A stretch of DNA of 64,000 nucleotides from Mycobacteriales bacterium (GCA_036558285.1 DATBFW010000203.1:2631-66630); one strand, 5' to 3'. Positions 29,235 to 58,394 are shown, numbered from the stretch's first letter. Made by a program: numbers and translations. The notes: a model not told the origin generated them from the sequence alone.

Positions 29235-29253
29235 CTATCCCGGGCCGATGACG
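29235..29253. promoter_or_regulatory. Regulon box CTATCC-cgggc-CGATGA(CG)
   Basis: Lies between the divergent FAD oxidoreductase and DUF3500 genes; 1 mismatch to consensus. Confidence 0.6.
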
Positions 29254-29263
29254 GCGCGCTACG

Positions 29264-30427
29264 GTGCGGCCCGTGGGGCTGCGCGCGCAGGACGTGTCCC
29301 CGGCCCGTGCCGTCGCGGACCGGATGGCCGAGGCGGCCCGGAGCTGGCTCGACGGGCTCGACGACGGGCAGCGCCGGATCGCGACCGGGGCGGTGCCGGC
29401 CGGCGACGCCTCCGACGCCGAGCGGCAGCGCTGGTTCTACACGCCCACCGATCACGGCGGCCTGACCATGCACCAGCAGCGGCCGGCGCAGCAGCGCGCG
29501 GCGATGCGGCTGGTCGCCAGCGGGCTGTCGACCCCGGCGTACGTCACCGTCGCCACCGTCATGGGCCTGGAGAACGTGCTGGACCAGGCCGAGGGGTTCC
29601 TGGCCCGGTTCGACCGGGAGCGCGGCCGCGACCCCGGGCTCTACTACCTGCGGGTGTTCGGCGAGCCGGGCGGCTCGGCGCCCTGGGGATGGCGGTTCGG
29701 CGGGCATCACGTCTCGCTGAACAACCTCGTGGTCGGCGGCGAGGTGGTGGCCACGACCCCGTGCTTCCTCGGCGCCGACCCGGCCGTCGCACCGCTGCTC
29801 GGCGGCGCGGCGCTGCGGCCGCTCGCGCAGGTCGAGGACCTGGCCCGGGACCTGGCCCGGTCGCTGCCGCCGGAGCTGGCCACCCGGGCCGTGCTGCTGG
29901 ACCGGGCGCCGTCGGACCTGGTCACCGCCAACCGCAGCCGGATCGAGCCAGGCAACCGGGTGATACCGCTGACCGGGATCTGGCGGGGCGCCTTCCCCGA
30001 CCCGGACGAGCAGGCGAAGCTGCAGGCCACCAGCGACGCGATCGACGCGGCCGCCGGGTACGACGACGCCGACCACGGCGTGCTCGCGTACACCGCCGCC
30101 CCGAAGGGGGTGCCGGCGCTCGAGCTCGACGGCGCCCAGCGGGAGATGCTGCGGCTGCTGCTGGGCGCCTACCTCGGTCGGGTGCCGGACGGTGTCTGCC
30201 CGCTCGACCGCTACCGCGACGACGCCGCGCTGGACGCGGTGCACTTCGCCTGGGCCGGCCCGACCGAGCCGGGCGCGCCGCACTACTACCGGCTGCAGGG
30301 ACCGCGGCTGCTGGTCGAGTGGGACAACACCCAGCGCGACGCCAACCACGCCCACTCCGTCTGGCGCGACCCGACCGCCGACTTCGGTCTGGACGTGCTC
30401 GCCGCCCACCGCGCCGCCCACCACTAA
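29264..30427 (+). CDS. DUF3500 family protein (start may be ATG 29324)
   Basis: WFYTPTDHGG, WGWRFGGHHVSLN, HYYRLQGPRLLVEWDNTQ, NHAHSVWRD. Confidence 0.9.
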   Translation: MRPVGLRAQDVSPARAVADRMAEAARSWLDGLDDGQRRIATGAVPAGDASDAERQRWFYTPTDHGGLTMHQQRPAQQRAAMRLVASGLSTPAYVTVATVMGLENVLDQAEGFLARFDRERGRDPGLYYLRVFGEPGGSAPWGWRFGGHHVSLNNLVVGGEVVATTPCFLGADPAVAPLLGGAALRPLAQVEDLARDLARSLPPELATRAVLLDRAPSDLVTANRSRIEPGNRVIPLTGIWRGAFPDPDEQAKLQATSDAIDAAAGYDDADHGVLAYTAAPKGVPALELDGAQREMLRLLLGAYLGRVPDGVCPLDRYRDDAALDAVHFAWAGPTEPGAPHYYRLQGPRLLVEWDNTQRDANHAHSVWRDPTADFGLDVLAAHRAAHH

Positions 30428-30454
30428 CGGGCCTGATCGGGCGGCGGTACGGAC

Positions 30455-31078
30455 TCAGCCGAGGATCAGGCCGACGGCGACGACGGCCATGATGACGGCG
30501 ATGGCCGCGTCGAGCGCACGCCAGGCGGCGGGGCGGGCGAAGAGCGGACGCAGCGCCGTGGCGCCGGCACCGAGCGCGCAGAACCACAGCGTGCTCGCGG
30601 TGGCCGCGCCGGCGGCGAACCACCAGCGCTGGCCGCCGCGGTCGGCGGCCACCGACCCGAGCAGCACCACCGTGTCGAGATAGACGTGCGGGTTGAGCCA
30701 GGTGAACGCGAGGCAGGTCAGCACCACGGGGACGAGCCCGCGCCGGACGACCGCGGCGTCCTCCGCGCGCAGCGCGGCGCGTTCCCGCGGGCGGACCGCG
30801 CGCCGTGCCGCGAGCAGGCCGTAGCCGAGCAGAGCCGTCGCGCCGACGATGCGGACCGCGGTGATCAGCGACGGCAGCGCGGCCAGCGCCGCACCGGCGC
30901 CCGCGACGCCGGCGGCGATGAGCACGACGTCGGATCCGATGCAGACCGCGACGACCGCGGCGATGTGGTCGCCGAGCAGGCCCTGCCGCAGGACGAACGC
31001 GTTCTGCGCGCCGATCGCGACGATCAGGGCCAGGCCGAGTCCGAGGCCGGCGGCCGCGGCGGCTGCGGAGGAGGACAC
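30455..31078 (-). CDS. lysE: LysE/ArgO amino acid exporter
   Basis: AIGAQNAFVLRQGL, TWLNPHVYLDT. Confidence 0.92.
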   Translation of the reverse strand: MSSSAAAAAAGLGLGLALIVAIGAQNAFVLRQGLLGDHIAAVVAVCIGSDVVLIAAGVAGAGAALAALPSLITAVRIVGATALLGYGLLAARRAVRPRERAALRAEDAAVVRRGLVPVVLTCLAFTWLNPHVYLDTVVLLGSVAADRGGQRWWFAAGAATASTLWFCALGAGATALRPLFARPAAWRALDAAIAVIMAVVAVGLILG

Positions 31079-31148
31079 GTCGCCACGGTAGGCAGCCGGC
31101 TTCCTGAACCCCAGCTTGAGAAACTTCAGCACCATTAGCCTGGCTCAT

Positions 31149-32030
31149 GTGGACTTGGAGCTCGACCAACTGCGGACGCTGGCGGCGATCGTGGATCACG
31201 GCAGCCTCGACGCCGCCGCCCGGGTGCTGCACGTGACGCCGTCGGCGGTCAGCCAGCGGCTGCGGGCGCTGGAGTCCGCCGCCGGGCGGGTGCTGCTCGT
31301 CCGCAGCCGGCCGGTGCAGCCGACCCCGGCCGGCGCCGCCCTGGTCAGGACCGCCCGGCAGGTCGAGCTGCTGCTCGCGGACACCACCGAGGAGCTGACC
31401 GGGACGGCCGCCGACCCGGCCCGGCCGGTGCTGGCGGTCGCGGTCGGCGGCGACTCGCTGAGCACCTGGGCACTGCCGGCGCTCGCGGCGGTCGCGGACG
31501 TCGCCTCGCTGCACGTCCGCCGCGAGGACGAGACCCGCACCAGCACGCTGCTGCGGGAGGGCACCGTGGTCGCGGCCGTGACGACCGAGGCCCGCCCGGT
31601 CCCCGGCTGCCGGGTGATCCGGCTTGGGGCGATGCGCTACCGCCCGGCCGCGGCGCCGGCGTTGGCCGAGCGCTTCTTCCCGGCCGGCGTCACGCCCGCC
31701 GCGCTCGCCCGGGCGCCGGTCGTCACCTTCGACTACGCCGACGACCTGCAGCACGCGTACGTCCGCCGGCACGGCCGGGACCTCGACCCGCCGAGCCACC
31801 AGGTGCCGTCCTCGGCCGACTTCCTGGCCGCGATCCTGCTCGGCATGGGCTGGGGGATGGTGCCCGACCTGCAGTCCGCGCCGCACTTCGGGACCGGGGC
31901 GCTGGTCGAGCTCGACCCGGGCGGCCCGGTCGACGTCGTCCTGCACTGGCAGCGCTGGGCGCTGCGGATCGCGGCCCTGGACGCGCTGACCGACGCGGTC
32001 CGGGCTGAGGCGCGCCACCAGCTGGTCTGA
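31149..32030 (+). CDS. lysG: LysR regulator, LysG/ArgP subfamily
   Basis: LHVTPSAVSQRLRALE, LLVRSRP; divergent from lysE, the classic pairing. Confidence 0.9.
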   Translation: MDLELDQLRTLAAIVDHGSLDAAARVLHVTPSAVSQRLRALESAAGRVLLVRSRPVQPTPAGAALVRTARQVELLLADTTEELTGTAADPARPVLAVAVGGDSLSTWALPALAAVADVASLHVRREDETRTSTLLREGTVVAAVTTEARPVPGCRVIRLGAMRYRPAAAPALAERFFPAGVTPAALARAPVVTFDYADDLQHAYVRRHGRDLDPPSHQVPSSADFLAAILLGMGWGMVPDLQSAPHFGTGALVELDPGGPVDVVLHWQRWALRIAALDALTDAVRAEARHQLV

Positions 32031-32033
32031 CCG

Positions 32034-32609: not shown

Positions 32610-32650
32610 GGCCCCATCATGGCAGCCGGCACCGGATGGACCGGATGGTG

Positions 32651-34120
32651 TCAGAGGCCGGACTGCACCTCGATGCGGCCGGTGTCGGCGGCGACCTTGA
32701 GGGAGGCGTAGTCGCTCTCGTTGAGGTCCGCGTACGCCGAGGCGAACTTCGCGATCGCCCGGTCGAACCCGTCGGTCTCGCCCAGGTACGACGCGATCGC
32801 GACCCGGTCGCCGGAGCGGGCGTGCGCGCGGGCCAGCGTCCACCCGCAGAGCGCGCCGTAGACCGCCATCCCCTCGGGCACCATCTGCTCCGGGGGCAGC
32901 GACATCTTCCAGTCCCGCAGCTGGCGCAGGTAGTAGTCGCGGTCGACGGTGTCGACCCCCTTGGTGCGCTGCCAGCCGAGGAAGATGTCCGAGCTGGCCT
33001 GCATCAGCCGCTGGCCGGAGACCACCCGCTGGCCCTGGTTCGCGTACAGGCTGCGGCCGGCGTACTCCTCCAGCACCGAGGACTGTGCCTCCTTCGCCTG
33101 CAGGATGATCGGGTCGTTGTGGTCGATGCCCTCCAGCAGCAGGATCCAGGCCCTGGTCCCGACGCTGCCCACGCCGACCACCTTGCGGGCCATGTCGACC
33201 AGCCGGAACTGCTCGAGCAGGTGCCGCCGGTCGGTCGTCAGCGTGCGGCGGTACGCGGACAGCAGCGCGCCGAGCCGCCGGAACACCTCCTCCGCCTCCA
33301 GCTCCGGGAGCAGCTCGGTCACCGGAACGATCAGCGGCGGGTCGCTGACGATCCTCGCCTTGCCGTCGACGATGGTTGTGAGCTTCTCGAACGCCTGCAG
33401 GTTGTCCCTGGTCCTGGCCTTGGCGACCAGCTTCTCGGTGCGCGCGACCCGGTCCGGCCGCAGCAGCGGCTTGATCCTGGCCAGCTCGCTGTCGATGTCC
33501 AGGTGCGCGTACCAGACGTCCAGGTGGGACTGGTCGGCGAAGCCGCGCACGGCCTCCCGGTAGGACCGGGTCGCGGCGAGGACGACCGACTTGCGTTCCT
33601 TGCGCTTGAAGCCGTTCTCCCGGCCGGCCACCTCCAGGCTCGCGGCCAGCCGCTTCACGTCCCACTCGAACGGGCCAGGGAGCGTCTCGTCGAAGTCGTT
33701 CACGTCGAAGACCGCGTGCCGCTCCGGCGAGGCGAACATCCCGAAGTTGGACAGGTGCGCGTCACCGCACAGCTGGGTCCGTAGCCCGGTGGTCGGCGTG
33801 CCGGCCAGGTCGGCCGCCATGACCAGGGCCGCGCCGCGGTAGAAGGTGAACGGCGAGACGAGCATCCGCCCGTACCGGATCGGCACCAGCTCGGGCACCC
33901 GGCTGGCCGCCTGCCGTTCGAGCAACTCGACCGGATCGGCCCGCAGCGGGGACGTGTCGAGCACGGCGTGCGACTCCAGCGGGACTTCCGTGCGGGTCGC
34001 GAGGCCCCGGGCGACCCGGTCCGAGCGGCTGGCCGGTGGGCCTGGGGTGGACCGCCGGACCCGGCGCGCAGCAGGGTCGGTCACCTCGACCGTGGTCAGG
34101 ACGTCGATCTGCTTGGCCAC
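32651..34120 (-). CDS. DUF2252 family protein
   Basis: RYGRMLVSPFTFYRGAA, CGDAHLSNFG, FDVNDFDE, KVVGVGSVG, YLRQLRDWK. Confidence 0.95.
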   Translation of the reverse strand: MAKQIDVLTTVEVTDPAARRVRRSTPGPPASRSDRVARGLATRTEVPLESHAVLDTSPLRADPVELLERQAASRVPELVPIRYGRMLVSPFTFYRGAALVMAADLAGTPTTGLRTQLCGDAHLSNFGMFASPERHAVFDVNDFDETLPGPFEWDVKRLAASLEVAGRENGFKRKERKSVVLAATRSYREAVRGFADQSHLDVWYAHLDIDSELARIKPLLRPDRVARTEKLVAKARTRDNLQAFEKLTTIVDGKARIVSDPPLIVPVTELLPELEAEEVFRRLGALLSAYRRTLTTDRRHLLEQFRLVDMARKVVGVGSVGTRAWILLLEGIDHNDPIILQAKEAQSSVLEEYAGRSLYANQGQRVVSGQRLMQASSDIFLGWQRTKGVDTVDRDYYLRQLRDWKMSLPPEQMVPEGMAVYGALCGWTLARAHARSGDRVAIASYLGETDGFDRAIAKFASAYADLNESDYASLKVAADTGRIEVQSGL

Positions 34121-34170
34121 GCGAATCCCCCCTTCCCCGGTCACCGTCCGCGCCGGACGAGGCTCCGTCA

Positions 34171-34187
34171 CCATCCGTCGTGGATGA
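34171..34187. promoter_or_regulatory. Regulon box CCATCC-gtcgt-GGATGA, probably bidirectional
   Basis: 22 nt to GACGGT on the minus strand (towards DUF2252) and 22 nt to AAGGAT on the plus strand (towards ClC). Confidence 0.7.
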
Positions 34188-34249
34188 GCGACCGCGTTCA
34201 TTCGCAGTGAAGGATGCGGCGCCGCTGGCGCCCCCGGGAGGGTGAGTGC

Positions 34250-35563
34250 GTGACGGCGGCGCCCGGGCAACCCCTAGCAGTGCCGGTCACCCAGAAGCGG
34301 GAGTTCTGGGTCCTGCTGGCATACGCGGTGGTCCTGGGCGTGTTCGGCGCGTTCGCCGCGCTGATCTTCGTCGGAGTGATCACGCTCGGCGGCAAGTGGT
34401 ACAGCGATTCCGACCCCGGCTGGTTCGGCGGGCACTGGTGGTGGGTGGCAATCGCCGTGGCGGCGGGGATCGTGGTCGGGCTGGTGCGTCGCCTGACCCG
34501 GCTGCCCTGGAAGACCCCCGGCCTGTTCGACGACCTGCAGACCGGCAGCGTCGAGGTCGGGCTGGTGCCGGGGATCGCGGCCGTCTCCGCGGTGTCGCTG
34601 ATCGGCGGGGCCAGCCTCGGTCCGGAGAAGGCGCTCGGATCGATGGGTGGCGGGCTCGGCACCTGGATCGCTCGACGACGAGCGCTCAAGGCCGAGGACG
34701 CCGGGGTGACTACCCTGGCCGGGTTCGCCGGCGCCTACGGCGGGCTGTTCTCCGCCACCCTGATCGTGGTGATGCTGATCATGGAGATCGCCCGCCCGGG
34801 CGGCCAGCGGTTCGCGAAGGCCCTCGCGGCGCAGATCGTGGCCTCGAGCGTCTCCTTCGCCATCTACTTCGTCATCGCCGGCGCCGTGTTCCTGGACTAC
34901 TACCAGGTGCCGCAGTACGAGTTCAAAGACTGGCATCTCCTCGCCGGGATCCTTCTCGGCATATTCGCGGCCATCCTGGTGACGGTGCTGGCCGCGATCA
35001 CGATGGCCGCGGCGCGCCTGTTCGACCGGGTGAAGATCCCGGACATCGCCAAGTCGGTGCTGGGCGCAGTGGTCTTCGGGGTCGTGGGAGTGGCTCTGCC
35101 GCTGACCATGTTCAGCGGCGGCGACCAGCTCAAGACCGTGCTCAGCGGCGCGGGGACCCTGGGCCTCGGCCTGCTCGTCGCCACGCTCATCGGGAAGATG
35201 CTGGCCTTCGGCGTCAGCCAGGGCAGCGGTTTCGTGGGCGGACCCATCTTCCCGTCGCTGTTTATCGGCGGAACGGCCGGTGTCGTCGTCCACCACGTCA
35301 TCCCCGGGGTGCCGCTGGGCCTGGCGTTCGCCTGCGTGCTCGCGGCCACCCCGGGGGCGCTGGTGGCCGCGCCGTTCACGATGGTCCTGCTGTCCGCGTT
35401 CCTGACCCAGATCGGGGCGCTGGAGACCGCGCCGGTCCTCATCGCCGTCTTCACCGCCTTCCTCACCATGGAAGGCGTGAAGTACTTCCTGGCCAGCCGG
35501 CGGCAGGCGCGCGCGGCCGCGGCGAAACCGCCGGCGGGGGCGGAGCCGGCGCCGCCGGGTTGA
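34250..35563 (+). CDS. ClC-family chloride channel/antiporter (YfeO-like)
   Basis: GGASLGPE (gating Glu retained), GFVGGPIFPS; no CBS domains. Confidence 0.88.
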   Translation: MTAAPGQPLAVPVTQKREFWVLLAYAVVLGVFGAFAALIFVGVITLGGKWYSDSDPGWFGGHWWWVAIAVAAGIVVGLVRRLTRLPWKTPGLFDDLQTGSVEVGLVPGIAAVSAVSLIGGASLGPEKALGSMGGGLGTWIARRRALKAEDAGVTTLAGFAGAYGGLFSATLIVVMLIMEIARPGGQRFAKALAAQIVASSVSFAIYFVIAGAVFLDYYQVPQYEFKDWHLLAGILLGIFAAILVTVLAAITMAAARLFDRVKIPDIAKSVLGAVVFGVVGVALPLTMFSGGDQLKTVLSGAGTLGLGLLVATLIGKMLAFGVSQGSGFVGGPIFPSLFIGGTAGVVVHHVIPGVPLGLAFACVLAATPGALVAAPFTMVLLSAFLTQIGALETAPVLIAVFTAFLTMEGVKYFLASRRQARAAAAKPPAGAEPAPPG

Positions 35564-35682
35564 CGGCGGCCGGCACGTCACGCCGCGCCGCACGCGGCGG
35601 ACGCCGGACACGGCCAGCTGGCGCAGCCCGATGGGCGCCGTGGCGGGTTGAGGCAGGCTCGCGCGAATCGTTAGATTTCCTC

Positions 35683-38446: not shown

Positions 38447-38493
38447 GAGCAGCGGGGCTCCCTTCTCGGCCACGGCCGCGGCGCGGGCGACGG

Positions 38494-43767: not shown

Positions 43768-43774
43768 GGCGCCT

Positions 43775-43793
43775 CTATCCGCCGGGGATGACG
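43775..43793. promoter_or_regulatory. Regulon box CTATCC-gccgg-GGATGA(CG) upstream of cydA
   Basis: Exact consensus, 8 nt after the LuxR #4 stop. Confidence 0.72.
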
Positions 43794-45277: not shown

Positions 45278-45290
45278 CAAGGAGCCGGCG

Positions 45291-46292
45291 ATGGACTTCG
45301 CGCTGGTCTGGTTCACGCTGGTGACCCTGCTGTGGACCGGGTTCTTCGTGCTCGAGGGGTTCGACTTCGGCGTCGGCATGCTGCACCGGCTGGTCGGCCG
45401 CACGGACGACGAGCGGCGGCTGGCGGTGAGCTCGATCGGCCCGCTCTGGGACGGCAACGAGGTCTGGCTGATCGTCGCCGGCGCCTCGATGTTCGCCGCC
45501 TTCCCCGGCTGGTACGCGACGATGTTCTCCGGCTTCTACCCGGCGCTGATCGTGTTGCTGGCCGCGCTGATCGTCCGCGGCGTCGCGATCGAATACCGCG
45601 GGCACCGGGACTCGGCGCGCTGGCGGCGGAACTGGAGCATCCTGCTCACCGCGGGCAGCCTGCTCGCGCCGCTGCTGATCGGGGTCGCCCTCGGCGACCT
45701 GTTGCGCGGCGTGCCGATCGACTCGAACCAGGAGTACACCGGCGGCTTCGTCGACATACTCACCCCGTACGGGCTGTACGTGGGCGTGACGGTGACGGTG
45801 CTGGCCGCGCTGCACGGCTCGACGTTCCTGGCGCTGAAGGTGGCGGACCCGGTCCGCGGCCGCGCCCACTCCGTGTCGGTCGTGCTGGCTCCGGTCGCCG
45901 CAGCACTCGTGGTCGGCTTCGTGATCTGGACGCAGTCGCTGGCGTCGGGCTGGGTTCCCGGCGCCCTCCCGATCCTCGCCGCGGTCGGTGCGATCGCTGC
46001 CGCCATCCTTGTGCCCCTGCACCGGGAGGCCTGGGCGTTCACCGCGACCGCCGTCGCGCTGGGCGGAACGATCGCGGCCCTGTTCGTGGAGCTGTACCCG
46101 CGGGTGATGGTGTCGAGCACCAACTCGGCGTTCGACCTCACCGTGCAGAACACGTCCTCCTCGCCGTACGCGCTGAAGGTGATGACGATCGCGGCGGCGG
46201 TGTTCCTGCCGCTGGTGCTGCTCTACCAGGGGTGGACCTACTACGTGTTCCGGCGGCGGCTGACGCTGGCCGATGCCGGCGAGGGGCTCTGA
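45291..46292 (+). CDS. cydB: Cytochrome bd oxidase subunit II
   Basis: LEGFDFGVG, IGPLWDGNEVWL, YQGWTYYVFRRR. Confidence 0.97.
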   Translation: MDFALVWFTLVTLLWTGFFVLEGFDFGVGMLHRLVGRTDDERRLAVSSIGPLWDGNEVWLIVAGASMFAAFPGWYATMFSGFYPALIVLLAALIVRGVAIEYRGHRDSARWRRNWSILLTAGSLLAPLLIGVALGDLLRGVPIDSNQEYTGGFVDILTPYGLYVGVTVTVLAALHGSTFLALKVADPVRGRAHSVSVVLAPVAAALVVGFVIWTQSLASGWVPGALPILAAVGAIAAAILVPLHREAWAFTATAVALGGTIAALFVELYPRVMVSSTNSAFDLTVQNTSSSPYALKVMTIAAAVFLPLVLLYQGWTYYVFRRRLTLADAGEGL

Positions 46293-46295
46293 CCG

Positions 46296-49665: not shown

Positions 49666-49739
49666 ACCCGGCCCGGTCGGGGATCCGAGCATGGCGGCAG
49701 GCCGGCCCCCCGCGAGTGGCCGACCGGACAGGAGGCGTC

Positions 49740-51323: not shown

Positions 51324-51334
51324 CGAGCGGAGGC

Positions 51335-52717
51335 ATGACCGTGACCGACCGAGTCGACGCCCTGGTGATCTTCGGTGCCACCGGCGACCTGGCCAAGCTG
51401 GAGACCTTCCCCGCGCTGGTGGGGCTGGTCGACCGGGGCGTGCTGGACGTCCCGGTGATCGGGGTCGCCAAGAGCGGCAAGGACCTCGAGCAGTTCCGGG
51501 CGTACGCGGAGGCGTCGCTGCGGCTGAACAAGATCGACCCGACCGGTACCGCGGCGGCGAAGATGCTCGGCCTGCTCGACTACGTCGACGGCGACCTCGA
51601 CGACGACGCGACGTACCAGGAGGTGGCGGCGAAGCTGGGCTCCGGCGCGAAGGTGCTGTTCTACCTGGAGGTGCCGCCGCCGCTGTTCGGCCGCATCGCC
51701 CGCGGCATCGGCGCGGCCGGGCTCGCCGCCGGGGCCAGGGTGATGGTGGAGAAGCCGTTCGGGACGGATCTGCGCAGCGCGCAGCAGCTGAACGCGACGC
51801 TGCACGAGATCTTCCCCGAGGACGCGGTCTACCGGGTCGACCACTGGCTCGGGCTCGAGGCGATCGAGAACGTCCTGTTCGGACGGTTCGCCAACACGAT
51901 CCTGGAGCCGCTGTTCAACCGGACGTACGTGGAGAGCATCCAGCTCACGATGGCCGAGGCGTTCGACGTCGCCGACCGGGGCCGGTTCTACGACCGCGCC
52001 GGCGCCGTCCGCGACGTGCTGCAGAACCACCTGCTCCAGGTGCTGGCGACGGCGACGGCGGAAGCACCGACCGGGACCGGCCTGGCCGCCTGGCGGGAGG
52101 CCAAGGACCAGCTGGTCAAGGGGCTGCGGCCGATGAGCCCGGCCAGCACCGTGTTCGGACAGTACGAGGGCTATCTCGACGTGGACGGGGTCGCGCCCGG
52201 GTCGACCACGGAGACGTTCGTGGCGACCCGGCTCTACCTGGACTCCTGGCGCTGGGCGGACGTCCCCATCCTCATCAGGGCGGGCAAGTGCATGCCGGTC
52301 ACGTCCACCGAGATCCAGGTCAGGTTCCGGCGGCCGCCGTACAACCTGTTCGGCCTCGAGCCGTTCGAGAACGTCAACTCGCTGCGCTTCCGCGTCTGGC
52401 CGGAGAGCAGGACCACGATCACGCTAGCCGGCCGGCACCCCGGGGTCGGGATGCGGGCCGCCCGGCGTGAGCTCGTCTTCGCCGAGGCGTCCGGTCCCGA
52501 CATGCGGCCGTACGACCGGCTCATCGGCGCGGCGCTGGACGGTGACCGATGGCTGTTCGCGCGCCAGGACACCGTCGAGACCGCGTGGACGGTGGTCGAT
52601 CCGGTGCTGGCCTCGGGCACGGTCGCCGTGCACCCCTATCCCCGGGGCAGCTGGGGACCCAAGCAAGCCGACTCGATCCTGCCGGACGGGGAAAGCTGGC
52701 ACGACCCGGTCGGCTGA
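51335..52717 (+). CDS. zwf: Glucose-6-phosphate dehydrogenase-like protein with variant substrate peptide
   Basis: GATGDLA, VEKPFG, RVDHWLGLE (canonical RIDHYLGKE), RDVLQNHLLQ, WRWADVP...RAGK. Confidence 0.85.
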   Translation: MTVTDRVDALVIFGATGDLAKLETFPALVGLVDRGVLDVPVIGVAKSGKDLEQFRAYAEASLRLNKIDPTGTAAAKMLGLLDYVDGDLDDDATYQEVAAKLGSGAKVLFYLEVPPPLFGRIARGIGAAGLAAGARVMVEKPFGTDLRSAQQLNATLHEIFPEDAVYRVDHWLGLEAIENVLFGRFANTILEPLFNRTYVESIQLTMAEAFDVADRGRFYDRAGAVRDVLQNHLLQVLATATAEAPTGTGLAAWREAKDQLVKGLRPMSPASTVFGQYEGYLDVDGVAPGSTTETFVATRLYLDSWRWADVPILIRAGKCMPVTSTEIQVRFRRPPYNLFGLEPFENVNSLRFRVWPESRTTITLAGRHPGVGMRAARRELVFAEASGPDMRPYDRLIGAALDGDRWLFARQDTVETAWTVVDPVLASGTVAVHPYPRGSWGPKQADSILPDGESWHDPVG

Positions 52718-52740
52718 CACACGCATACGGGAGGCAGAGG

Positions 52741-54156
52741 GTGAGTGACGATCGCACGCCCACCGCGGTGGTCGTGGGGGCCGGCTTCGCCGGCATCGGG
52801 GCCGCCCGCGAGCTGTCCAAGCACGGCGTGCGGGTGGTGCTGCTGGAGCGCAACGACTACCACCAGTTCCAGCCACTGCTCTACCAGGTCGCGACCGCGG
52901 AGCTGGCTCGCTCGGACGTCGCCGCCTCGCTGCGGACCTTGATGCGGCACCACGAGCTGGTCGACGTCAAGGCCGCCGACGTGGCGGCGGTGGACCCGGA
53001 GGCACGCACCGTGACCGCGGCCGACGGGACGACGTTCACCGGCGACTACCTGATCCTCGCCGCCGGCTCGCGGCCGAACTTCTTCGACACCTCCGGCGCC
53101 GACGAGCACTCGATCCCGCTGTACTCGATCAACGACGCCGAACGCCTGCGTACCAGGGTGTTCGCGGCGTTCGACGCCGCCGACCGGGACCCCTCGCTGG
53201 TCGACCGGGGCGTGATCCGGTTCGTCGTGGTCGGCGGTGGCCCGACCGGGGTCGAGGTGGCCGGTGCGCTGGCCGAGCTGATCCAGGACGTGCTGCCGCA
53301 CCAGTACCGGAGCCTGGCCGTGCGCTCGGCCAGCGTGCACCTGGTCGACCACGCGCACACCCTGCTCGGCCCGTTCTCCGACCGCGCGCACGACTACGCG
53401 GCGAAGGTGCTGCAGCGCAAGGGAGTGCGACTCCACCTCGGCACCGGCGTCGTCGAGATCACTCCGGACAAGGTCGTGCTCAGCGATGGCACCGTGCTCA
53501 CCACCCGCACGGTGATCTGGGCCGGCGGCGTGATGGCGGCCTCGCTGGCCGAGCGGACCGGACTGCCGCTCGGCCGCGGCGGGCGGATCGCGGTCGAGCA
53601 CGACCTCACCGTCGAGGACGTCCCCGGCGTGTACGCGGTGGGCGACGTCGCCAACGTGCCGGCGCCGGACGGGACTTCCTACCCGCAGCTTGGCTCGGTG
53701 GCCCTGCAGAGCGGGCAGTGGGCGGCCCGCAACGTTGTCGCCGACGTGCACGGGAAGTCCCGCAAGCCGTTCCACTACCACGACAAGGGGATCATGGCGA
53801 TGATCGGCCGCGGCGCCGCCGTCGCCGAGCTCGGCGAGCACCGGCACGAGCTGCACGGGCCGGTCGCGTTCGCGTCCTGGCTCGGCGTGCACGCGTACCT
53901 GATGAGCGGGGTCCGCAGCCGGGTGGACGCGTTCGTGTCCTGGGGCTGGGACTACTTCAGCACCAACCGCACGCCCGCGATCGTCGACCGGTCCGACGCC
54001 GGCCGCATCGACTGGGGCGACGAGGACGACGACGCCGACGACACCAAGGACGGGGATCCGCGGGCCGCCGGTGCCGACGGTCGGCCGGTCCCGGCCGACC
54101 CCGAGCCCGCGGACGACGACCACCGGCGCCAGCCGGATTCCATCCGGGCGCCGTAG
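52741..54156 (+). CDS. ndh: Type II NADH dehydrogenase
   Basis: VGAGFAG, HQFQPLLYQVAT, VVGGGPTGVEVAG, YHDKGIMAMIGR. Confidence 0.88.
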   Translation: MSDDRTPTAVVVGAGFAGIGAARELSKHGVRVVLLERNDYHQFQPLLYQVATAELARSDVAASLRTLMRHHELVDVKAADVAAVDPEARTVTAADGTTFTGDYLILAAGSRPNFFDTSGADEHSIPLYSINDAERLRTRVFAAFDAADRDPSLVDRGVIRFVVVGGGPTGVEVAGALAELIQDVLPHQYRSLAVRSASVHLVDHAHTLLGPFSDRAHDYAAKVLQRKGVRLHLGTGVVEITPDKVVLSDGTVLTTRTVIWAGGVMAASLAERTGLPLGRGGRIAVEHDLTVEDVPGVYAVGDVANVPAPDGTSYPQLGSVALQSGQWAARNVVADVHGKSRKPFHYHDKGIMAMIGRGAAVAELGEHRHELHGPVAFASWLGVHAYLMSGVRSRVDAFVSWGWDYFSTNRTPAIVDRSDAGRIDWGDEDDDADDTKDGDPRAAGADGRPVPADPEPADDDHRRQPDSIRAP

Positions 54157-54184
54157 CGCCTCCCACCGCACGAAAGGGCTCGCC

Positions 54185-56095
54185 ATGGCCGACCAGCTCA
54201 CGCCGGCAACTTCCCTGTCCATCGCCGAGCACGGCCTGATCGGCGACCTGCACACCGCGGCGCTGGTGGCGACCGACGGCACCATCGACTGGTTCTGCTG
54301 CCCGCGGTTCGACTCGCCCTCGGTGTTCGGCGCGCTGCTCGACCCGGAGAAGGGCGGCCACTGCCGGATCCGCCCGCTCGGCACGGAGTACATCACCAAG
54401 CAGCTCTACCTGCCCGACACGGCGGTGCTGATCACCCGCTTCCTGGCCGCGGACGGGGTCGGCGAGGTCGTCGACTTCATGCCGCCGGCCGGCGCCACGG
54501 CCAGCGAACAGCACCGCCTGGTCCGGATGGTGCGCTGCGTCCGCGGCGAGCTGACCTTCGAGATCGAGGTCGCGCCCCGGTTCGACTACGGCCGGCGCGA
54601 GCACACCCTGCAGCTGACCGCCGCCGGGGCGGTGTTCACCGCCGGGGACATGGGACTGACGCTGCACGCCGTCCGCGATCCGGACGACGAGCGGGTCGCC
54701 GAGGTGCGCCCGGCCGGCGAGGACCTGGTGGTGCGGTTGCCGCTGTCGGCCGGCCAGACCCGCGGGGCCATCCTCGAGTGGGGCGCCGGCCGCCCGCAGG
54801 AGGTCCGGCCCGAACAGATCGAGCGCGAGCACGCCGCGACCGTGCAGTTCTGGCGGTCCTGGCTGGCCCGCTCGACGTACCAGGGCCGGTGGCGGGAGAT
54901 GGTGCAGCGCTCGGCGATCACGCTGAAGCTGATGACCTACGCGCCCACCGGCGCGCTGGTGGCGGCCCCGACCGCGGCCCTGCCCGAGCAGGTCGGCGGC
55001 GAGCGGAACTGGGACTACCGCTACACCTGGGTCCGGGACGCGTCGTTCTCGGTACGCGCGCTGCTCGGGCTCGGGTTCGTCGACGAGGCGGCCGGGTTCG
55101 CGCTGTGGCTGCGCGACCGGGTGGCCGAGCAGGACGCGCGCAAGGACGGGCCGCCGCTGAACATCATGTACCGGGTGGACGGCTCGTCCGACCTGGTCGA
55201 GGAATCGCTCGAGCACTGGTCCGGCTACCGCGGGTCGCGCCCGGTGCGGATCGGCAACGGGGCCGCCGAGCAGCTCCAGCTGGACATCTACGGCGAGGCG
55301 TTCGACAGCATCTACGCCGCCGACCAGGTCGGCATCCAGATGGGTCACCGCGGCTGGACCGAGCTGGCCAAGGTGCTCGACTGGCTGGTGGACAACTGGG
55401 ACCAGCCCGAGGAGGGCATCTGGGAGACCCGCGGCGGCCGGAAGGACTTCACCTACGGGCGCGCGATGAGCTGGGTCGCGTTCGACCGGGCGGTGCGGCT
55501 GGCCGTCCGGTACGGCCGGCCGGCACCGCTGGAGCGGTGGGCCGCCGCCCGGGACGCGATCTACCAGCAGATCATGGACAAGGGCTGGAACGCCGACCGC
55601 GGCGCGTTCGTGCAGCACTACGGGAGCCCGGTGCTGGACTCGTCGCTGCTGCGGATGTCCCGGCTCGGCGTGATCGCACCGCTCGATCCGCAGTGGACGT
55701 CCACTTTGGACGCGATGCGGGACGAGCTGGTCAGCGACAGCCTCGTCTACCGGTACAACCCGGCGGCGTCCCCGGACGGGCTGGAGGGGGCGGAGGGCAC
55801 CTTCTCGCTGTGCACGTTCAGCTGGGTCGACGCGCTGGCCCGGTCCGAGCGCCTGGAGGAGGCCAGGCTGGTGTTCGAGAAGATGCTGACCTACGCCAAC
55901 CACGTCGGGCTCTACTCCGAGGAGATCGCCGCGACCGGGGAGCAGATCGGCAACTTCCCGCAGGCGTTCACCCACCTGTCCCTGATCGATGCCGCGCTGA
56001 CCCTGGACGCGGCGCTCGACCGCCGGTCCGGGTCCAACGGGCACCGGCCGGCCGTCCTGACCCTCGCCGCGATGGGGGACCGGGACCGGCTGTGA
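54185..56095 (+). CDS. Glycoside hydrolase family 15 (trehalase/glucoamylase-like)
   Basis: HGLIGDLHTAAL, SLPE-like ALPEQVGGERNWDYRYTWVRD, GIWETRG, LYSEE...GNFPQAFTH. Confidence 0.95.
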   Translation: MADQLTPATSLSIAEHGLIGDLHTAALVATDGTIDWFCCPRFDSPSVFGALLDPEKGGHCRIRPLGTEYITKQLYLPDTAVLITRFLAADGVGEVVDFMPPAGATASEQHRLVRMVRCVRGELTFEIEVAPRFDYGRREHTLQLTAAGAVFTAGDMGLTLHAVRDPDDERVAEVRPAGEDLVVRLPLSAGQTRGAILEWGAGRPQEVRPEQIEREHAATVQFWRSWLARSTYQGRWREMVQRSAITLKLMTYAPTGALVAAPTAALPEQVGGERNWDYRYTWVRDASFSVRALLGLGFVDEAAGFALWLRDRVAEQDARKDGPPLNIMYRVDGSSDLVEESLEHWSGYRGSRPVRIGNGAAEQLQLDIYGEAFDSIYAADQVGIQMGHRGWTELAKVLDWLVDNWDQPEEGIWETRGGRKDFTYGRAMSWVAFDRAVRLAVRYGRPAPLERWAAARDAIYQQIMDKGWNADRGAFVQHYGSPVLDSSLLRMSRLGVIAPLDPQWTSTLDAMRDELVSDSLVYRYNPAASPDGLEGAEGTFSLCTFSWVDALARSERLEEARLVFEKMLTYANHVGLYSEEIAATGEQIGNFPQAFTHLSLIDAALTLDAALDRRSGSNGHRPAVLTLAAMGDRDRL

Positions 56096-56123
56096 CCGCG
56101 CGGATCGCGCTCCGGGCGCGGCG

Positions 56124-56882
56124 ATGACCGCATCGCCGGTCCCGGAGCGCGAGGATGCGAGCGTGAGCAACCGCCACCGGGACCGGTACGAGCTGGTCTT
56201 CCTGCTGCTGGTGTCGACGTTCGTGCTGAGCGCGTTCGGGCTGCACGAGTGGGGGCGGCTGCCGGTGCTGCTGCTCTACGCGGCGGCGCTGGTGCTCGCG
56301 CTGCGGTCGTCCAGGGTGCCCGGGCCCATCTCCCGCGGCGTGCGAGTGGTGCTCGCGGTGGGCACGATCGGCATCGGGATCGGCGTGCTCGCTGCGCCCG
56401 GCGACCTCACCGAGGGCATCCTGTCGTGCTGGATCGCCGTAGTGCTGGCAACGACGATCGTCATTGTCGTCATGCGGATCGTGCACCACCGGGTGGTCAC
56501 CGGGCAGACCATCTTCGGCGCGCTGAGCGCCTACCTCATGATCGGGTTCTTCTTCTCCGCCGTCTTCACCGCGATCGACCGGCTCGGATCGGGGTCGTTC
56601 TTCGCGGGCGGGAAGGAGGCCAACTCGGCCACGATCCAATACTTCAGCTTCGTGACCTTGTCCACCACGGGCTACGGCGACTACACCGCCGCAGGTGACG
56701 CCGGTCGGTCGATGGCCGTGCTGGAGGCGCTGCTCGGGCAGATCTTCCTGGTCACGCTCGTCGCCCGGCTGGTCGCCCTGTTCGGGACAGAGAGGCCGGA
56801 GCGGCGGAGGGAGCGATCCGGCAGGCGCCTGCCCGTGGAGGCGCCCGCCGGCGACGGACCGGACGGTCCGGACGCGCCCTAG
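56124..56882 (+). CDS. Potassium channel family protein (Ion_trans_2)
   Basis: YFSFVTLSTTGYGD selectivity filter; EALLGQIFLVTLVARLV. Confidence 0.9.
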   Translation: MTASPVPEREDASVSNRHRDRYELVFLLLVSTFVLSAFGLHEWGRLPVLLLYAAALVLALRSSRVPGPISRGVRVVLAVGTIGIGIGVLAAPGDLTEGILSCWIAVVLATTIVIVVMRIVHHRVVTGQTIFGALSAYLMIGFFFSAVFTAIDRLGSGSFFAGGKEANSATIQYFSFVTLSTTGYGDYTAAGDAGRSMAVLEALLGQIFLVTLVARLVALFGTERPERRRERSGRRLPVEAPAGDGPDGPDAP

Positions 56883-57334
56883 TAGCGGCTGTGCTTCGGC
56901 TCGCGCAGCTCGCGGCCGTGCGCGATGAGGGCGTAGATCACCAGGACGTCGATCGCGATGATCAGCGTCGACCACACCGGGTACGAGGCGATGTAGGCGA
57001 AGTTCAGCACCGCGCTGACGATCGCGGCGATGACGCCGACCGTCCGGCCCCAGATGCGGCCGGAGAAGATCGCCGCGCCGGCCGCGACCAGCACGATGCC
57101 GAGGATGAGGTGCACCCAGCCCCAGGCGGTGTAGTCGACATTGACGACGAGGCCGTCCGAGCGAACCAGGTAGACCTCGTCCCGGAACAGCGCGACGAGG
57201 CCGTCGATGGCCTGGAACGCGCCGACGACGACCAGCATGACGCCGGCGAAGACGGCCCAGCCGGCCCAGCCGGTGCGCTCGGGGGCGCTGGTGTAGGTGG
57301 AGTCGGAGCTCTGAGTCGTAGGTGTGTCCGTCAC
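56879..57334 (-). CDS. DUF7144-like small membrane protein
   Basis: GWAVFAGVML...WGWVHL...YPVWSTLIIAIDVLVIYAL; RBS GAGGAG. Confidence 0.85.
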   Translation of the reverse strand: MTDTPTTQSSDSTYTSAPERTGWAGWAVFAGVMLVVVGAFQAIDGLVALFRDEVYLVRSDGLVVNVDYTAWGWVHLILGIVLVAAGAAIFSGRIWGRTVGVIAAIVSAVLNFAYIASYPVWSTLIIAIDVLVIYALIAHGRELREPKHSRY

Positions 57335-57405
57335 GGTGTGTCTCCTCGGTCTCGTGGCGCGACGGGGTCGCTGGGTGCCACCGTGGCGCGAGCGGTGCCC
57401 GACAG

Positions 57406-57424
57406 CGTCATCCGGCCCGGATAG
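57406..57424. promoter_or_regulatory. Regulon box (minus strand CTATCC-gggcc-GGATGA-CG)
   Basis: Exact consensus; CACGGT lies 22 nt downstream towards the DUF7144 gene. Confidence 0.72.
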
Positions 57425-57560
57425 TTGCCGGCCGTCCGGCCGCCGCCGCTGCCACCTCCGCCGGCCCGACCTACTCGGGGCGGACGAGGCGGACCGCCCG
57501 CCGCCGACGCTTGTATCGCGGGAGGCCACGTCCGCGACGCGGTCCAGGGAGGAGCCGGTC

Positions 57561-58067
57561 ATGTCGACGCTGATCGCCATCGGTTATCCGGACGAGACCA
57601 CGGCGAGCTCGGCCGCCGAGGAGGCCCACCGGATGGCTCGCGACCTCATCCTCGAGCCCGAGGCCATCGCGGTGATCAGCCGGGACCGCGAGGGCAAGTT
57701 CCAGGTCAGCACCAACCATCATCCGGTCGCCGGCGGCACCTCCTGGGGGATGTTCTGGGGCCTTCTGTTCGGGTTCCTGTTCTTCGTCCCTGTCTTCGGC
57801 ATGGCCGTCGGGGCGGGGCTCGGTGCGGTGATGGGTCGGGTCACGAAGACCGGCATCGACCGCCAGTTCCGCGACCAGGTCCGGGACATGCTGGAGCCGG
57901 GGACGTCGGCGCTGTTCCTGGTGGTCGACCGGGTCACGCCGGACCGGGCCGTCGAGCGGCTGCGCCGGTTCGGCGGCACCGTGCTCAAGTCCTCGCTGAG
58001 CAAGCAGGACGAGCAGGAGCTGCAGGAGGCCCTGCACGGCCGGCCCGTCCAGGCGTCGGCGTCGTGA
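57561..58067 (+). CDS. DUF1269 family protein
   Basis: LIAIGYPDE, Gly-zipper GMFWGLLFG...GAGLGA, LEPGTSALF; RBS GGAGGAG. Confidence 0.92.
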   Translation: MSTLIAIGYPDETTASSAAEEAHRMARDLILEPEAIAVISRDREGKFQVSTNHHPVAGGTSWGMFWGLLFGFLFFVPVFGMAVGAGLGAVMGRVTKTGIDRQFRDQVRDMLEPGTSALFLVVDRVTPDRAVERLRRFGGTVLKSSLSKQDEQELQEALHGRPVQASAS

Positions 58068-58080
58068 GCAGGACACCGGC

Positions 58081-58380
58081 ATGCTGAGCAACCACGAGCG
58101 CCGCGAGCTCGCCCGGATCGAGCAGGGTCTGCGCGAGGACCCGGCGTGGCGCGAGCCGCCGGCCCTGCCCGGACACACCACCTGGTTGCGTCGCTGGGGA
58201 CTGCGCCTGCTGATCGGCTTCGCCGGCCTGGTCATGACGATCGGGGTCATCACGACCGACGGTGAGCTGCTCCTGCAGGGCGTGCTGATGATGGGTGCCG
58301 CCTGCGTGTGGTGGCTGTGCCGGCAGGTCGTCGCCGCGAAGGAGGAGTCGCACTCCGCCGACCACCAACCCGAGCACTGA
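58081..58380 (+). CDS. DUF3040 family protein
   Basis: MLSNHERRELARIEQGLREDP plus two TMs. Confidence 0.85.
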   Translation: MLSNHERRELARIEQGLREDPAWREPPALPGHTTWLRRWGLRLLIGFAGLVMTIGVITTDGELLLQGVLMMGAACVWWLCRQVVAAKEESHSADHQPEH

Positions 58381-58394
58381 CCCACTCCGGATGG
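58378..58394. promoter_or_regulatory. Regulon box variant TGACCC-actcc-GGATGG upstream of the LDH-like gene
   Basis: Reverse complement CCATCC-N5-GGGTCA, 1 mismatch; overlaps the DUF3040 stop. Confidence 0.5.

What the first reader, a model, noticed from the sequence alone, without database searches (positions are those of the whole stretch)
29235..58394. Undescribed candidate regulon: recurring C(T/C)ATCC-N5-GG(A/G)TGA box ahead of respiratory and DUF operons
Seen in sequence: six intergenic copies of a 17-bp quasi-palindrome. They are CTATCC-cgggc-CGATGA (29235), CCATCC-gtcgt-GGATGA (34171), CTATCC-gccgg-GGATGA (43775), CTATCC-gcggc-GGGTGA (49647), TCATCC-ggccc-GGATAG (57408, reverse) and TGACCC-actcc-GGATGG (58378). 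Four carry the same CG flank. At 34171 (both directions), 49647 and 57408 an xAxxxT hexamer (GACGGT, AAGGAT, GAGCAT, CACGGT) lies 22-23 nt beyond the box; at 43775 the equivalent hexamer is TCTGCT. That puts the box centre near -43. Established knowledge: this is class II activator geometry, and LuxR/NarL HTHs bind such dyads. Inference: the four co-located MalT-like STAND-LuxR proteins activate a single regulon comprising cydABDC, GMC-zwf-ndh-GH15-K+ channel, ClC, DUF2252, DUF7144/DUF1269, the LDH-like enzyme and the FMO/DUF3500 pair. I know of no described regulon with this box.
Basis: partly seen in the sequence, partly recalled or inferred. Interest (0 to 1): 0.85.

Follow-up and report, generated by a model that had tools for sequence, protein, structure and literature searches.

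The report
MalT-type activator boxes, already described
The repeated 17-bp box is real and is almost certainly a promoter site for the MalT-like regulators encoded beside it, but the same box and geometry were published for Actinoplanes in 2020, so this is a new example of a known regulon type that here also covers cytochrome bd and a sugar-oxidation operon.

Summary
CYATCC-N5-GGRTGA occurs 4 times exactly in the window (0.04 expected) and 6 times with one mismatch or none. The 4.9-Mb genome has only 3 further exact copies.

The box is not undescribed. It is the 5'-TCATCC-5nt-GGATGA-3' motif that Droste et al. 2020 (PMC7567727) found overlapping the -35 region of 17 promoters. Those promoters lie in a gene island of Actinoplanes sp. 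SE50/110 that is activated by a MalT-like LuxR regulator. The half-site is the E. coli MalT box GGA(T/G)GA.

Four sites are solid: 34171, 43775, 49647 and 57408. All are kept in the nearest relative. At three of them a -10-like hexamer sits 22-23 nt downstream, at 34171 in both directions, as the published geometry predicts.

Sites 29235 and 58378 are doubtful. The site at 58378 is destroyed in the nearest relative.

The regulon extends beyond the window. A second island on another contig carries about 10 canonical boxes and two more MalT-like regulators. Relatives keep boxes upstream of their DUF2252, cydA and GMC-oxidoreductase genes.

What is new is the cargo (cydABDC and the GMC-zwf-ndh-GH15-K+ channel operon), not the mechanism.

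The parts
34171..34187 (.). Box CCATCC-GTCGT-GGATGA in the divergent DUF2252/ClC intergenic region. It is nearly symmetric and is predicted to serve both directions.
   Evidence: Exact match. Kept in G003 with 2 changes. -10-like hexamers lie 22 nt away on both sides. Boxes lie upstream of DUF2252 homologues in G008, G027 and G004.
43775..43791 (+). Box CTATCC-GCCGG-GGATGA. It lies 8 nt after the stop of regulator D and about 97 nt before the cydA ATG (43889).
   Evidence: Exact match. Kept in G003. A box lies 113 nt upstream of the 69%-identical cydA of G027. No clear -10-like hexamer at 22-23 nt.
49647..49663 (+). Box CTATCC-GCGGC-GGGTGA. Its TGA is the cydC stop codon. It is the predicted promoter site of the GMC-zwf-ndh-GH15-K+ channel operon (GMC ATG at 49740).
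   Evidence: Exact match. Identical in G003. GAGCAT lies 23 nt downstream. Boxes lie upstream of GMC orthologues in G008, G001 and G027, with -10-like hexamers at 22-23 nt in G008 and G027.
57408..57424 (-). Box CTATCC-GGGCC-GGATGA (minus strand) in the 227-nt divergent region between DUF7144 and DUF1269.
   Evidence: Exact match. Identical in G003. CACGGT lies 22 nt downstream toward DUF7144. All four DUF7144 genes of the C244 island sit in box-headed units (three directly behind a box, one second in its operon).
29235..29251 (+). Doubtful box CTATCC-CGGGC-CGATGA between the FMO-like gene and DUF3500.
   Evidence: 1 mismatch here and 2 in G003. Only 12 nt from the called DUF3500 start. No -10-like hexamer at 22-23 nt in either direction.
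58378..58394 (-). Doubtful box (plus strand TGACCC-ACTCC-GGATGG) overlapping the DUF3040 stop, 71 nt before the LDH-like gene.
   Evidence: 1 mismatch. In G003 an 8-bp insertion splits the spacer and GGATGG becomes GGCTGG, while the downstream TATGAC stretch is kept.
34143..34148 (-). -10-like GACGGT for DUF2252.
   Evidence: Offset 22 from the box. Kept in G003.
34210..34215 (+). -10-like AAGGAT for ClC. The predicted TSS near 34222 favours the 34280 start codon over 34214.
   Evidence: Offset 22. It is GGGGAT in G003.
49687..49692 (+). -10-like GAGCAT for the GMC operon.
   Evidence: Offset 23. Kept in G003 and in the duplicated promoter module of G003.
57380..57385 (-). -10-like CACGGT for DUF7144.
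   Evidence: Offset 22. Kept in G003.
41158..43767 (+). Regulator D: MalT-like STAND NTPase with a C-terminal LuxR/GerE HTH, 869 aa. Best candidate for the box-binding activator.
   Evidence: Pfam GerE, AAA_22, nSTAND. Aligns to E. coli MalT residues 17-366 (26% identity, E 4e-24) and 822-893 (36%). Recognition helix NTVKSHVR against MalT TTIKTHIR. 44% identical over its full length to regulator F of the C244 island. Relatives of this type lie within 10 kb of perfect boxes in 5 other genomes.
38494..40740 (-). Regulator C: STAND-LuxR, 748 aa, second paralogue type, followed by a DUF1269 gene (37910-38473).
   Evidence: Pfam AAA_16, GerE. 43% identical over its full length to regulator E of the C244 island. 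HTH NTVKTQVAA.
35683..37947 (+). Regulator B: TPR/MalT-like LuxR, 754 aa, downstream of ClC on the same strand. It may be co-transcribed from the 34171 promoter.
   Evidence: Pfam GerE, TPR_MalT. 36-37% identical to C and E.
32651..34120 (-). DUF2252 gene, predicted target.
   Evidence: Pfam. Box 50 nt upstream.
34280..35563 (+). ClC-type channel or antiporter gene, predicted target.
   Evidence: Pfam Voltage_CLC.
43889..49663 (+). cydABDC operon, predicted target.
   Evidence: Pfam Cyt_bd_oxida_I and II and ABC transporter domains. ATG 43889 read from the alignment.
49740..56882 (+). Operon of GMC oxidoreductase, zwf, NDH-2-type ndh, GH15 (trehalase-like N-terminus) and a K+ channel; predicted target.
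   Evidence: Pfam. Gaps between genes are 11-50 nt.
56879..57334 (-). DUF7144 gene, predicted target.
   Evidence: Pfam.
57562..58380 (+). DUF1269 (true start ATG 57562) and DUF3040. A possible target through the shared divergent region; a weak second box-like sequence CTACTC-GGGGC-GGACGA lies at 57471-57487.
   Evidence: No -10-like hexamer at the expected spacing.

Best explanation
The boxes are binding sites for MalT-like (LAL, STAND-LuxR) transcription activators encoded in the island.

Proposed mechanism:
- Each box is two inverted GGATGA half-sites whose centres are 11 bp apart, which is one helical turn. That arrangement fits a dimer of LuxR-type HTH domains on one face of the DNA.
- The promoter-proximal half ends about 35 nt before the transcription start. 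The box therefore replaces the -35 element, and the bound regulator recruits RNA polymerase (class II activation).
- By analogy with E. coli MalT, an unknown ligand plus ATP would switch the STAND domain on.

Predicted targets in this window are the divergent DUF2252/ClC pair (perhaps with regulator B), cydABDC, the GMC-zwf-ndh-GH15-K+ channel operon, and DUF7144 (perhaps with DUF1269-DUF3040).

The window holds one of at least two such islands in this genome. It is the same kind of regulon that was shown genetically in Actinoplanes sp. SE50/110.

What is shown here: the motif, its enrichment, its conservation, its spacing to -10-like hexamers, and its co-location with LAL genes.

What is inferred: binding, activation, which paralogue binds (D is the best guess), and the signal.
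For: 1. Enrichment. 4 exact copies against 0.04 expected. Canonical TCATCC-N5-GGATGA with one mismatch or none occurs 19 times in the genome, against 0-1 for composition-matched controls. 18 of the 19 are non-coding (P = 6e-15).
2. Published precedent. The identical motif overlaps -35, with its 3' end 34.4 +/- 1.0 nt from 17 mapped TSS. Deleting malT lowers 42 of 51 island genes, and overexpressing it raises at least 39 (PMC7567727).
3. Geometry. That paper predicts a -10 hexamer starting about 22 nt after the box. xAxxxT is found at 22-23 nt in 4 of 9 box directions (P = 3e-4). It is also found at the GMC promoters of G008 and G027.
4. No sigma-70-like -35/-10 pair and no terminator lies at any box.
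5. Regulators. Three MalT-like genes lie inside the boxed region. D aligns to E. coli MalT in both the NTPase and the HTH domain and shares the K-[ST]-H-[IV]-R recognition-helix pattern.
6. Replication inside the genome. The C244 island has about 10 boxes, two LAL genes orthologous in type to D and C, and boxed DUF2252, DUF7144, DUF1269 and DUF3040 genes.
7. Conservation. All four strong boxes are kept in G003. Boxes sit upstream of DUF2252, cydA and GMC orthologues in more distant genomes whose flanks no longer align.
8. Co-location. D-type LAL genes in G001, G002, G004, G008 and G009 all lie within 10 kb of perfect boxes, although each genome has only 4-12 of them.
9. Cargo overlap with the Actinoplanes island: DUF1269, DUF2252, SHOCT, diacylglycerol kinase, dipeptidase and a pair of LAL genes.
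Against: - No transcription start, binding or expression data exist for this organism. Only soil metagenome DNA runs hold the sequence.
- Direct binding of the regulator to the box was not shown even in Actinoplanes. The evidence there is genetic plus the motif.
- The cydA box has no recognisable -10-like hexamer at the expected spacing.
- G003 is so close (87-95% identity in intergenic DNA) that box conservation there carries little weight on its own.
- The genome has at least 17 large LuxR-type regulators, so the assignment to D rather than C, B or a distant paralogue is a guess.
- Several relatives with many boxes (G027, G012, G006) gave no D-type hit at E <= 1e-20, though that search scored only 52 candidates per genome.
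- Orthology of D to the Actinoplanes regulator ACSP50_3915 could not be tested.
Confidence: 0.8

Rival explanations
1. The box is a real operator but is bound by a different, smaller regulator, for example a NarL/DosR-type response regulator or the island's LysR protein. The LAL genes would then be bystanders.
For: - The LuxR HTH of regulator D scores about as well against VraR, DosR and GerE as against any other HTH, so HTH similarity alone does not single out LALs.
- The genome has about 10 short GerE-type proteins.
- A LysR gene lies at 31149-32030.
Against: - The half-site equals the MalT box GGA(T/G)GA (PMC7567727).
- Both islands, and five other genomes, keep D-type LAL genes next to boxes.
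- The Actinoplanes genetics point to the LAL regulator.
- No LysR-type T-N11-A motif is involved. The C244 island was not seen to carry a LysR gene among the genes scanned.
Confidence: 0.1
2. The LAL protein binds the box but represses, or acts both ways, by occluding the -35 region rather than activating.
For: A site that overlaps -35 can repress. Nothing in the sequence fixes the sign of regulation.
Against: - The boxed promoters have no -35-like element of their own.
- The Actinoplanes malT deletion lowers, and its overexpression raises, island transcripts.
- E. coli MalT is an activator (established knowledge).
Confidence: 0.06
3. The boxes are not regulatory. They would be a short dispersed repeat, hairpin or terminator remnant, or a chance cluster.
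For: The dyad could form a 6-bp hairpin. Three copies touch or closely follow stop codons (43775, 49647, 58378).
Against: - There is no T-run or terminator-like structure at any box.
- Spacer and flanks are not conserved between copies, so they are not copies of a mobile repeat.
- The spacing to -10-like hexamers is fixed.
- 18 of 19 genome copies are non-coding, and composition controls give 0-1.
Confidence: 0.03

Closest known systems
[quoted passage not shown] SE50/110 (Droste et al. 2020, PMC7567727)
   Same: - Same 17-bp dyad, TCATCC-5nt-GGATGA.
- Same predicted position (3' end about 34-35 nt from the TSS, overlapping -35).
- Regulators of the MalT-like LuxR family sit inside the island, and occur as a pair of two paralogue types.
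- Many boxes are spread over a large island of poorly annotated membrane and stress-type genes.
- Shared cargo families: DUF1269, DUF2252 (in A. missouriensis), SHOCT, diacylglycerol kinase, dipeptidase and glycoside hydrolases.
- Patchy distribution that looks like horizontal transfer.
   Different: - The host is an uncultured soil Actinomycetota lineage.
- There are two islands and at least 5 island-encoded LAL genes, against one island with two.
- The cargo here includes cydABDC, NDH-2, zwf, a GMC oxidoreductase, GH15, a K+ channel and ClC, none of which are in the Actinoplanes list.
- In this window the promoter-distal half is mostly CTATCC or CCATCC rather than TCATCC.
- No expression, TSS or genetic data exist here. 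Maltose dependence is unknown.
MalT regulon of Escherichia coli and Klebsiella pneumoniae (MalT box GGA(T/G)GA; as summarised in PMC7567727, and established knowledge)
   Same: - The half-site core GGATGA is identical.
- The regulator architecture is the same: STAND NTPase, helical sensor, C-terminal LuxR HTH.
- The proximal box abuts the -35 region, and the promoters lack their own -35.
   Different: - E. coli promoters use asymmetric boxes in direct-repeat arrays plus a proximal box (from memory). Here there is a single inverted repeat with a 5-nt spacer.
- No maltose or maltodextrin genes are among the targets.
- Only 26-36% protein identity.
Known regulators of actinobacterial cydABDC and dormancy genes: Rex (operator TTGTGAA-N4-TTCACAA) and DosR/DevR (operator around GGGAC-N-GTCCC), both quoted from memory
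   Same: They control cytochrome bd, alternative dehydrogenases and stress genes under redox or oxygen limitation. DosR is also a LuxR-type HTH protein, and its HTH aligns with that of regulator D.
   Different: The operator sequences are unrelated to TCATCC-N5-GGATGA. The regulators are small (Rex, or a response regulator) rather than STAND ATPases. No Rex-like or DosR-like box was looked for here beyond noting that the consensus does not fit.

Membership tests
Actinoplanes-type MalT/LAL regulon (MRLGR type) | Box 5'-TCATCC-5nt-GGATGA-3' repeated in front of many genes of one island | tested here: met
   4 exact and 2 near copies of CYATCC-N5-GGRTGA in 29 kb. The inner 13 bp, ATCC-N5-GGAT, are palindromic. 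The outer positions vary (CT/CC against TC). The canonical form dominates the second island.
Actinoplanes-type MalT/LAL regulon (MRLGR type) | Box overlaps -35, with its 3' end about 34 nt from the TSS | tested here: inconclusive
   No TSS data are available. -10-like hexamers at 22-23 nt in 4 of 9 directions (P = 3e-4) and in two relatives fit the prediction. The cydA box lacks one.
Actinoplanes-type MalT/LAL regulon (MRLGR type) | MalT-like LuxR (STAND NTPase + GerE HTH) regulator genes inside the island | tested here: met
   Regulators B, C and D lie at 35683-43767. D aligns with E. coli MalT in both domains.
Actinoplanes-type MalT/LAL regulon (MRLGR type) | Regulator orthologous to ACSP50_3915 | not testable with these tools
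   The Actinoplanes protein sequence could not be fetched. The supplementary alignment is not held as text.
Actinoplanes-type MalT/LAL regulon (MRLGR type) | Shared cargo families (DUF1269, DUF2252, SHOCT, DAGK, dipeptidase, glycosidases) | tested here: met
   The window has DUF1269 twice, DUF2252 and GH15. The C244 island has SHOCT, DUF1269, DUF2252, DAGK and an M20 peptidase. Compared with Tables S3 and S4 of the paper.
Actinoplanes-type MalT/LAL regulon (MRLGR type) | Island transcription depends on the regulator and rises on maltose | not testable with these tools
   The organism is uncultured and no RNA runs exist.
E. coli-type MalT maltose regulon | MalT box core GGA(T/G)GA at the promoter | tested here: met
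   The proximal half-sites are GGATGA three times and GGGTGA once. The GGGTGA variant is outside the E. coli T/G rule.
E. coli-type MalT maltose regulon | Targets are maltose/maltodextrin uptake and catabolism genes | tested here: not met
   No mal genes lie among the boxed operons. The same is reported for Actinoplanes.
E. coli-type MalT maltose regulon | Arrays of asymmetric boxes in direct repeat | tested here: not met
   Each promoter has a single inverted repeat. Weak second boxes occur only at 34144 and 57471.

The most novel reading that the evidence does not exclude
In this soil actinobacterial lineage the MalT-type island regulon has an unknown function even in Actinoplanes. Here it is wired to a complete alternative energy module: a GH15 trehalase-like enzyme, a GMC oxidoreductase, zwf, NDH-2, cytochrome bd with its CydDC assembly transporter, K+ and Cl- channels, and a glutamate decarboxylase elsewhere in the genome. 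The link is conserved. GMC is boxed in G000, G003, G008, G001 and G027, and cydA is boxed in G000, G003 and G027. This suggests that the whole family of MalT-box islands is a starvation, low-oxygen or acid-stress survival programme switched on by a metabolite-sensing STAND ATPase. That idea could be tested directly in cultured carriers.
Probability: 0.3. Interest if true: 0.6.

Novelty: new member of a known kind. Interest (0 to 1): 0.33.

Why it matters
For annotation, the box lets promoters and regulon members be predicted in uncultured Actinomycetota. It ties a set of DUF families (DUF2252, DUF7144, DUF1269, DUF3040) to one regulator type.

For biology, the function of the Actinoplanes island is unknown. 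Finding the same box in front of cytochrome bd, NDH-2, zwf and a storage-sugar hydrolase, conserved in several genomes, gives a concrete hypothesis: an energy-limitation or stress programme. Laboratories working on cultured carriers could test it.

It is not a new regulatory mechanism.

Tried and rejected
1. Chance or a composition artefact: rejected by shuffles and by composition-matched reversed controls.
2. Terminator or hairpin: no terminator-like sites at the boxes.
3. A separate specificity class for the CTATCC half-site. The variant is only modestly enriched in relatives. Orthologous GMC boxes read CCATCC or TCATCC in other genomes. I therefore treat positions 1-2 as low-information, not as a new operator class.
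4. Autoregulation of the LAL genes. A weight-matrix scan found no box upstream of regulators A, C or D.
5. TSS or expression evidence. Only soil metagenome DNA runs hold the sequence.
6. Naming the organism. The only named relative is 'uncultured Actinomycetota bacterium MFD04944.bin.1.194'.
7. Fetching the Actinoplanes regulator for an orthology test was not possible.
8. The genome search with the full-length regulator D failed repeatedly. The C-terminal half worked.
9. Literature on LAL control of cytochrome bd: nothing was found in the held library.

Full report
**The observation**

The pattern CYATCCNNNNNGGRTGA has 4 exact matches in the window, at 34171, 43775, 49647 and 57408 (minus strand). 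Shuffles give 0.04 expected. With one mismatch allowed there are 6 matches against 0.76 expected, which adds 29235 and 58378. The window is C203:2631-66630 of a 4.88-Mb, 264-contig, 74% G+C genome. That genome has only 7 exact matches in all. AAGGAT and GACGGT lie 22 nt either side of 34171. GAGCAT lies 23 nt after 49647. CACGGT lies 22 nt after 57408. Only TCTGCT follows 43775. In this genome's intergenic DNA an xAxxxT hexamer at one of two adjacent offsets has probability 0.042, so 4 of 9 box directions gives P = 3e-4.

**Gene map**

I called genes by codon-position G+C and ran Pfam on them. The order is:

| Coordinates | Strand | Gene |
|---|---|---|
| 28026-29159 | - | FMO-like |
| 29264-30427 | + | DUF3500 |
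| 30455-31135 | - | LysE |
| 31149-32030 | + | LysR |
| 32034-32609 | - | GNAT |
| 32651-34120 | - | DUF2252 |
| 34280-35563 | + | ClC |
| 35683-37947 | + | LAL regulator B |
| 37910-38473 | - | DUF1269 |
| 38494-40740 | - | LAL regulator C |
| 41158-43767 | + | LAL regulator D |
| 43889-49663 | + | cydABDC |
| 49740-56882 | + | GMC oxidoreductase, zwf, ndh, GH15, K+ channel |
| 56879-57334 | - | DUF7144 |
| 57562-58067 | + | DUF1269 (true start ATG 57562) |
| 58081-58380 | + | DUF3040 |
| 58466-59392 | + | LDH-like |

A fourth LAL gene, A, lies at 11195-13669, far from any box. The TGA of box 49647 is the cydC stop codon. The TGA of 58378 is the DUF3040 stop codon.

**What the box is**

A full-text search for the half-site found Droste et al. 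2020 (PMC7567727). In Actinoplanes sp. SE50/110, MEME found 5'-TCATCC-5nt-GGATGA-3' upstream of 17 mapped TSS in a 51-gene island (ACSP50_3900-3950). The 3' end of the motif lies 34.4 +/- 1.0 nt from the TSS and so overlaps -35. Deleting the island's MalT-like LuxR gene ACSP50_3915 lowered 42 of the 51 genes, and overexpressing it raised at least 39. The authors point out that the half-site is the E. coli/Klebsiella MalT box GGA(T/G)GA. They found the motif in the corresponding islands of four other Micromonosporaceae.

The island holds two MalT-like regulators, three DUF1269 genes, SHOCT, a diacylglycerol kinase, a dipeptidase and glycosidases. In A. missouriensis it also holds DUF2252. Its statement that no such regulon is described is wrong.

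That is what is seen here.

**Which of the six sites are credible**

The nearest relative is G003, an uncultured Actinomycetota MAG. It keeps 43775, 49647 and 57408 exactly, and 34171 with two changes. It is too close for this to weigh much alone, because intergenic identity is 87-95%.

Site 58378 is destroyed in G003 by an 8-bp insertion in the spacer, while the sequence downstream is kept. Site 29235 has two mismatches in G003, lies 12 nt from the DUF3500 start, and has no -10-like hexamer at the expected spacing. I count four sites as solid and two as doubtful. Membership of FMO/DUF3500 and of the LDH-like gene is therefore weak.

**The regulon is larger than the window**

I scanned the genome with the published palindrome. 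There are 19 hits with one mismatch or none, against 0-1 for composition-matched controls. Of the 19, 18 are non-coding (P = 6e-15).

About ten sites cluster on contig C244 between 18.6 and 48.9 kb. Each lies at a gene start. The genes they head are DUF6325-SHOCT-Abhydrolase_9, DUF7144 (four genes), an M20 peptidase, DUF3040, DUF2252, DUF1269, SulP-diacylglycerol kinase and YbjQ. Two more LAL genes sit among them: E (724 aa) and F (870 aa). This island resembles the Actinoplanes one even more closely than the window does.

Other good sites include the divergent region between a glutamate-decarboxylase-like gene and a BKACE gene on C58.

**Regulators**

D aligns with E. coli MalT over the NTPase domain (residues 17-366, 26% identity, E 4e-24) and over the HTH (36%). 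The island LAL genes fall into two types:

- D and F are 44% identical over their full length. Their recognition helix is VSVNTV(K/R)(S/T)HVR, which is like MalT's TTIKTHIR.
- C and E are 43% identical, and B is 35-37% identical to them. Their helix is NTVKTQVAA.

Each island therefore carries one regulator of each type, as the Actinoplanes island carries two LAL genes. I take D (and F) as the most likely box binder. That choice is inference.

**Comparative evidence**

In 30 relatives the pattern YCATCC-N5-GGATGR occurs 0-12 times per genome. The reversed control occurs about 3 times in total. In a sample of 300 genomes of the class, the perfect palindrome occurs in 44, against 4 for the control. 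It forms tight clusters in some of them.

- Boxes lie upstream of DUF2252 homologues in G008, G027 and G004, with flanks that no longer align.
- The 69%-identical cydA of G027, a genome of another family, has TCACCC-CGTCG-GGATGA 113 nt upstream.
- The same box in G027 lies 62 nt upstream of the divergent GMC gene.
- GMC orthologues of G008 and G001 (77-79% identity) also have boxes. G008 and G027 show GACGGT or CACCGT at 22-23 nt.
- D-type LAL genes in G001, G002, G004, G008 and G009 all lie within 10 kb of perfect boxes.

The cydA and GMC links are thus conserved features of this lineage's regulon and not an accident of one genome.

**Other checks**

No sigma-70-like promoter or terminator-like structure coincides with any box. 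This fits activator-dependent promoters and argues against a hairpin or terminator reading. No box lies upstream of the LAL genes themselves. No RNA data exist for this organism. Earlier notes of this scan reached the same identification for other genomes. I reached it independently from the paper.

**Verdict**

This is a real cis-regulatory motif, correctly read as a class II site for MalT-like regulators, but it is already described. It is a new member of the Actinoplanes-type MalT/LAL island regulon. The added value is the respiratory and sugar-oxidation cargo and the evidence that the regulon type is widespread in soil Actinomycetota.

Noticed in passing
genome contig C244:18600-48900 (loci L035, L036): A second, larger island with about 10 canonical TCATCC-N5-GGATGA boxes at gene starts. 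It holds two STAND-LuxR genes, DUF2252, DUF1269, DUF3040, four DUF7144 genes, SHOCT, a diacylglycerol kinase, an M20 peptidase, a P-type ATPase, SulP and YbjQ. It is very like the Actinoplanes island.
   Followed up: partly
L032:11150-11330 (G003), corresponding to window ~54100: G003 carries a duplicate of about 120 nt of the cydC-end/GMC promoter module (box, GAGCAT -10 and leader) inserted between ndh and GH15. The window lacks it. It is an example of a whole activator-dependent promoter being copied within an operon.
   Followed up: partly
window 43889-49663 and loci L049-L067: The island's cydA is 95% identical in G003 and 69% in G027 (another family), but only 42-44% identical to the best full-length cydA match in four other members of the same genus (G002, G004, G005, G010; G001 gave only a 56% partial match). 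In G027, cydA and GMC are divergent and share one box. This suggests the respiratory module moves with the island.
   Followed up: partly
genome contig C58:70606-70622: A box, CCATCC-GCAGG-GGATGA, lies in the divergent region between a glutamate-decarboxylase-like gene and a BKACE gene. The identical 17-mer is present in G003 (C1:218253). Together with ClC this hints at an acid-stress component.
   Followed up: partly
window 57471-57487 and 34144-34160: Weak second box-like sequences, CTACTC-GGGGC-GGACGA and CCGTCC-GCGCC-GGACGA, lie 46 and 10 nt from the strong boxes (63 and 27 nt start to start). The first is kept in G003. They may be auxiliary sites.
   Followed up: no
window 2742-5720 (-): The open frame around the GTP-dependent PEPCK gene is 992 aa, but the Pfam domains start at residue 399. 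The real gene is probably about 600 aa, and the long N-terminal extension is an artefact of the high-G+C open frame.
   Followed up: no
genome-wide: The genome encodes at least 17 large (over 500 aa) LuxR-type regulators. Several lie on contigs that also carry box-like sites: C48, C133, C148, C172 and C221.
   Followed up: no
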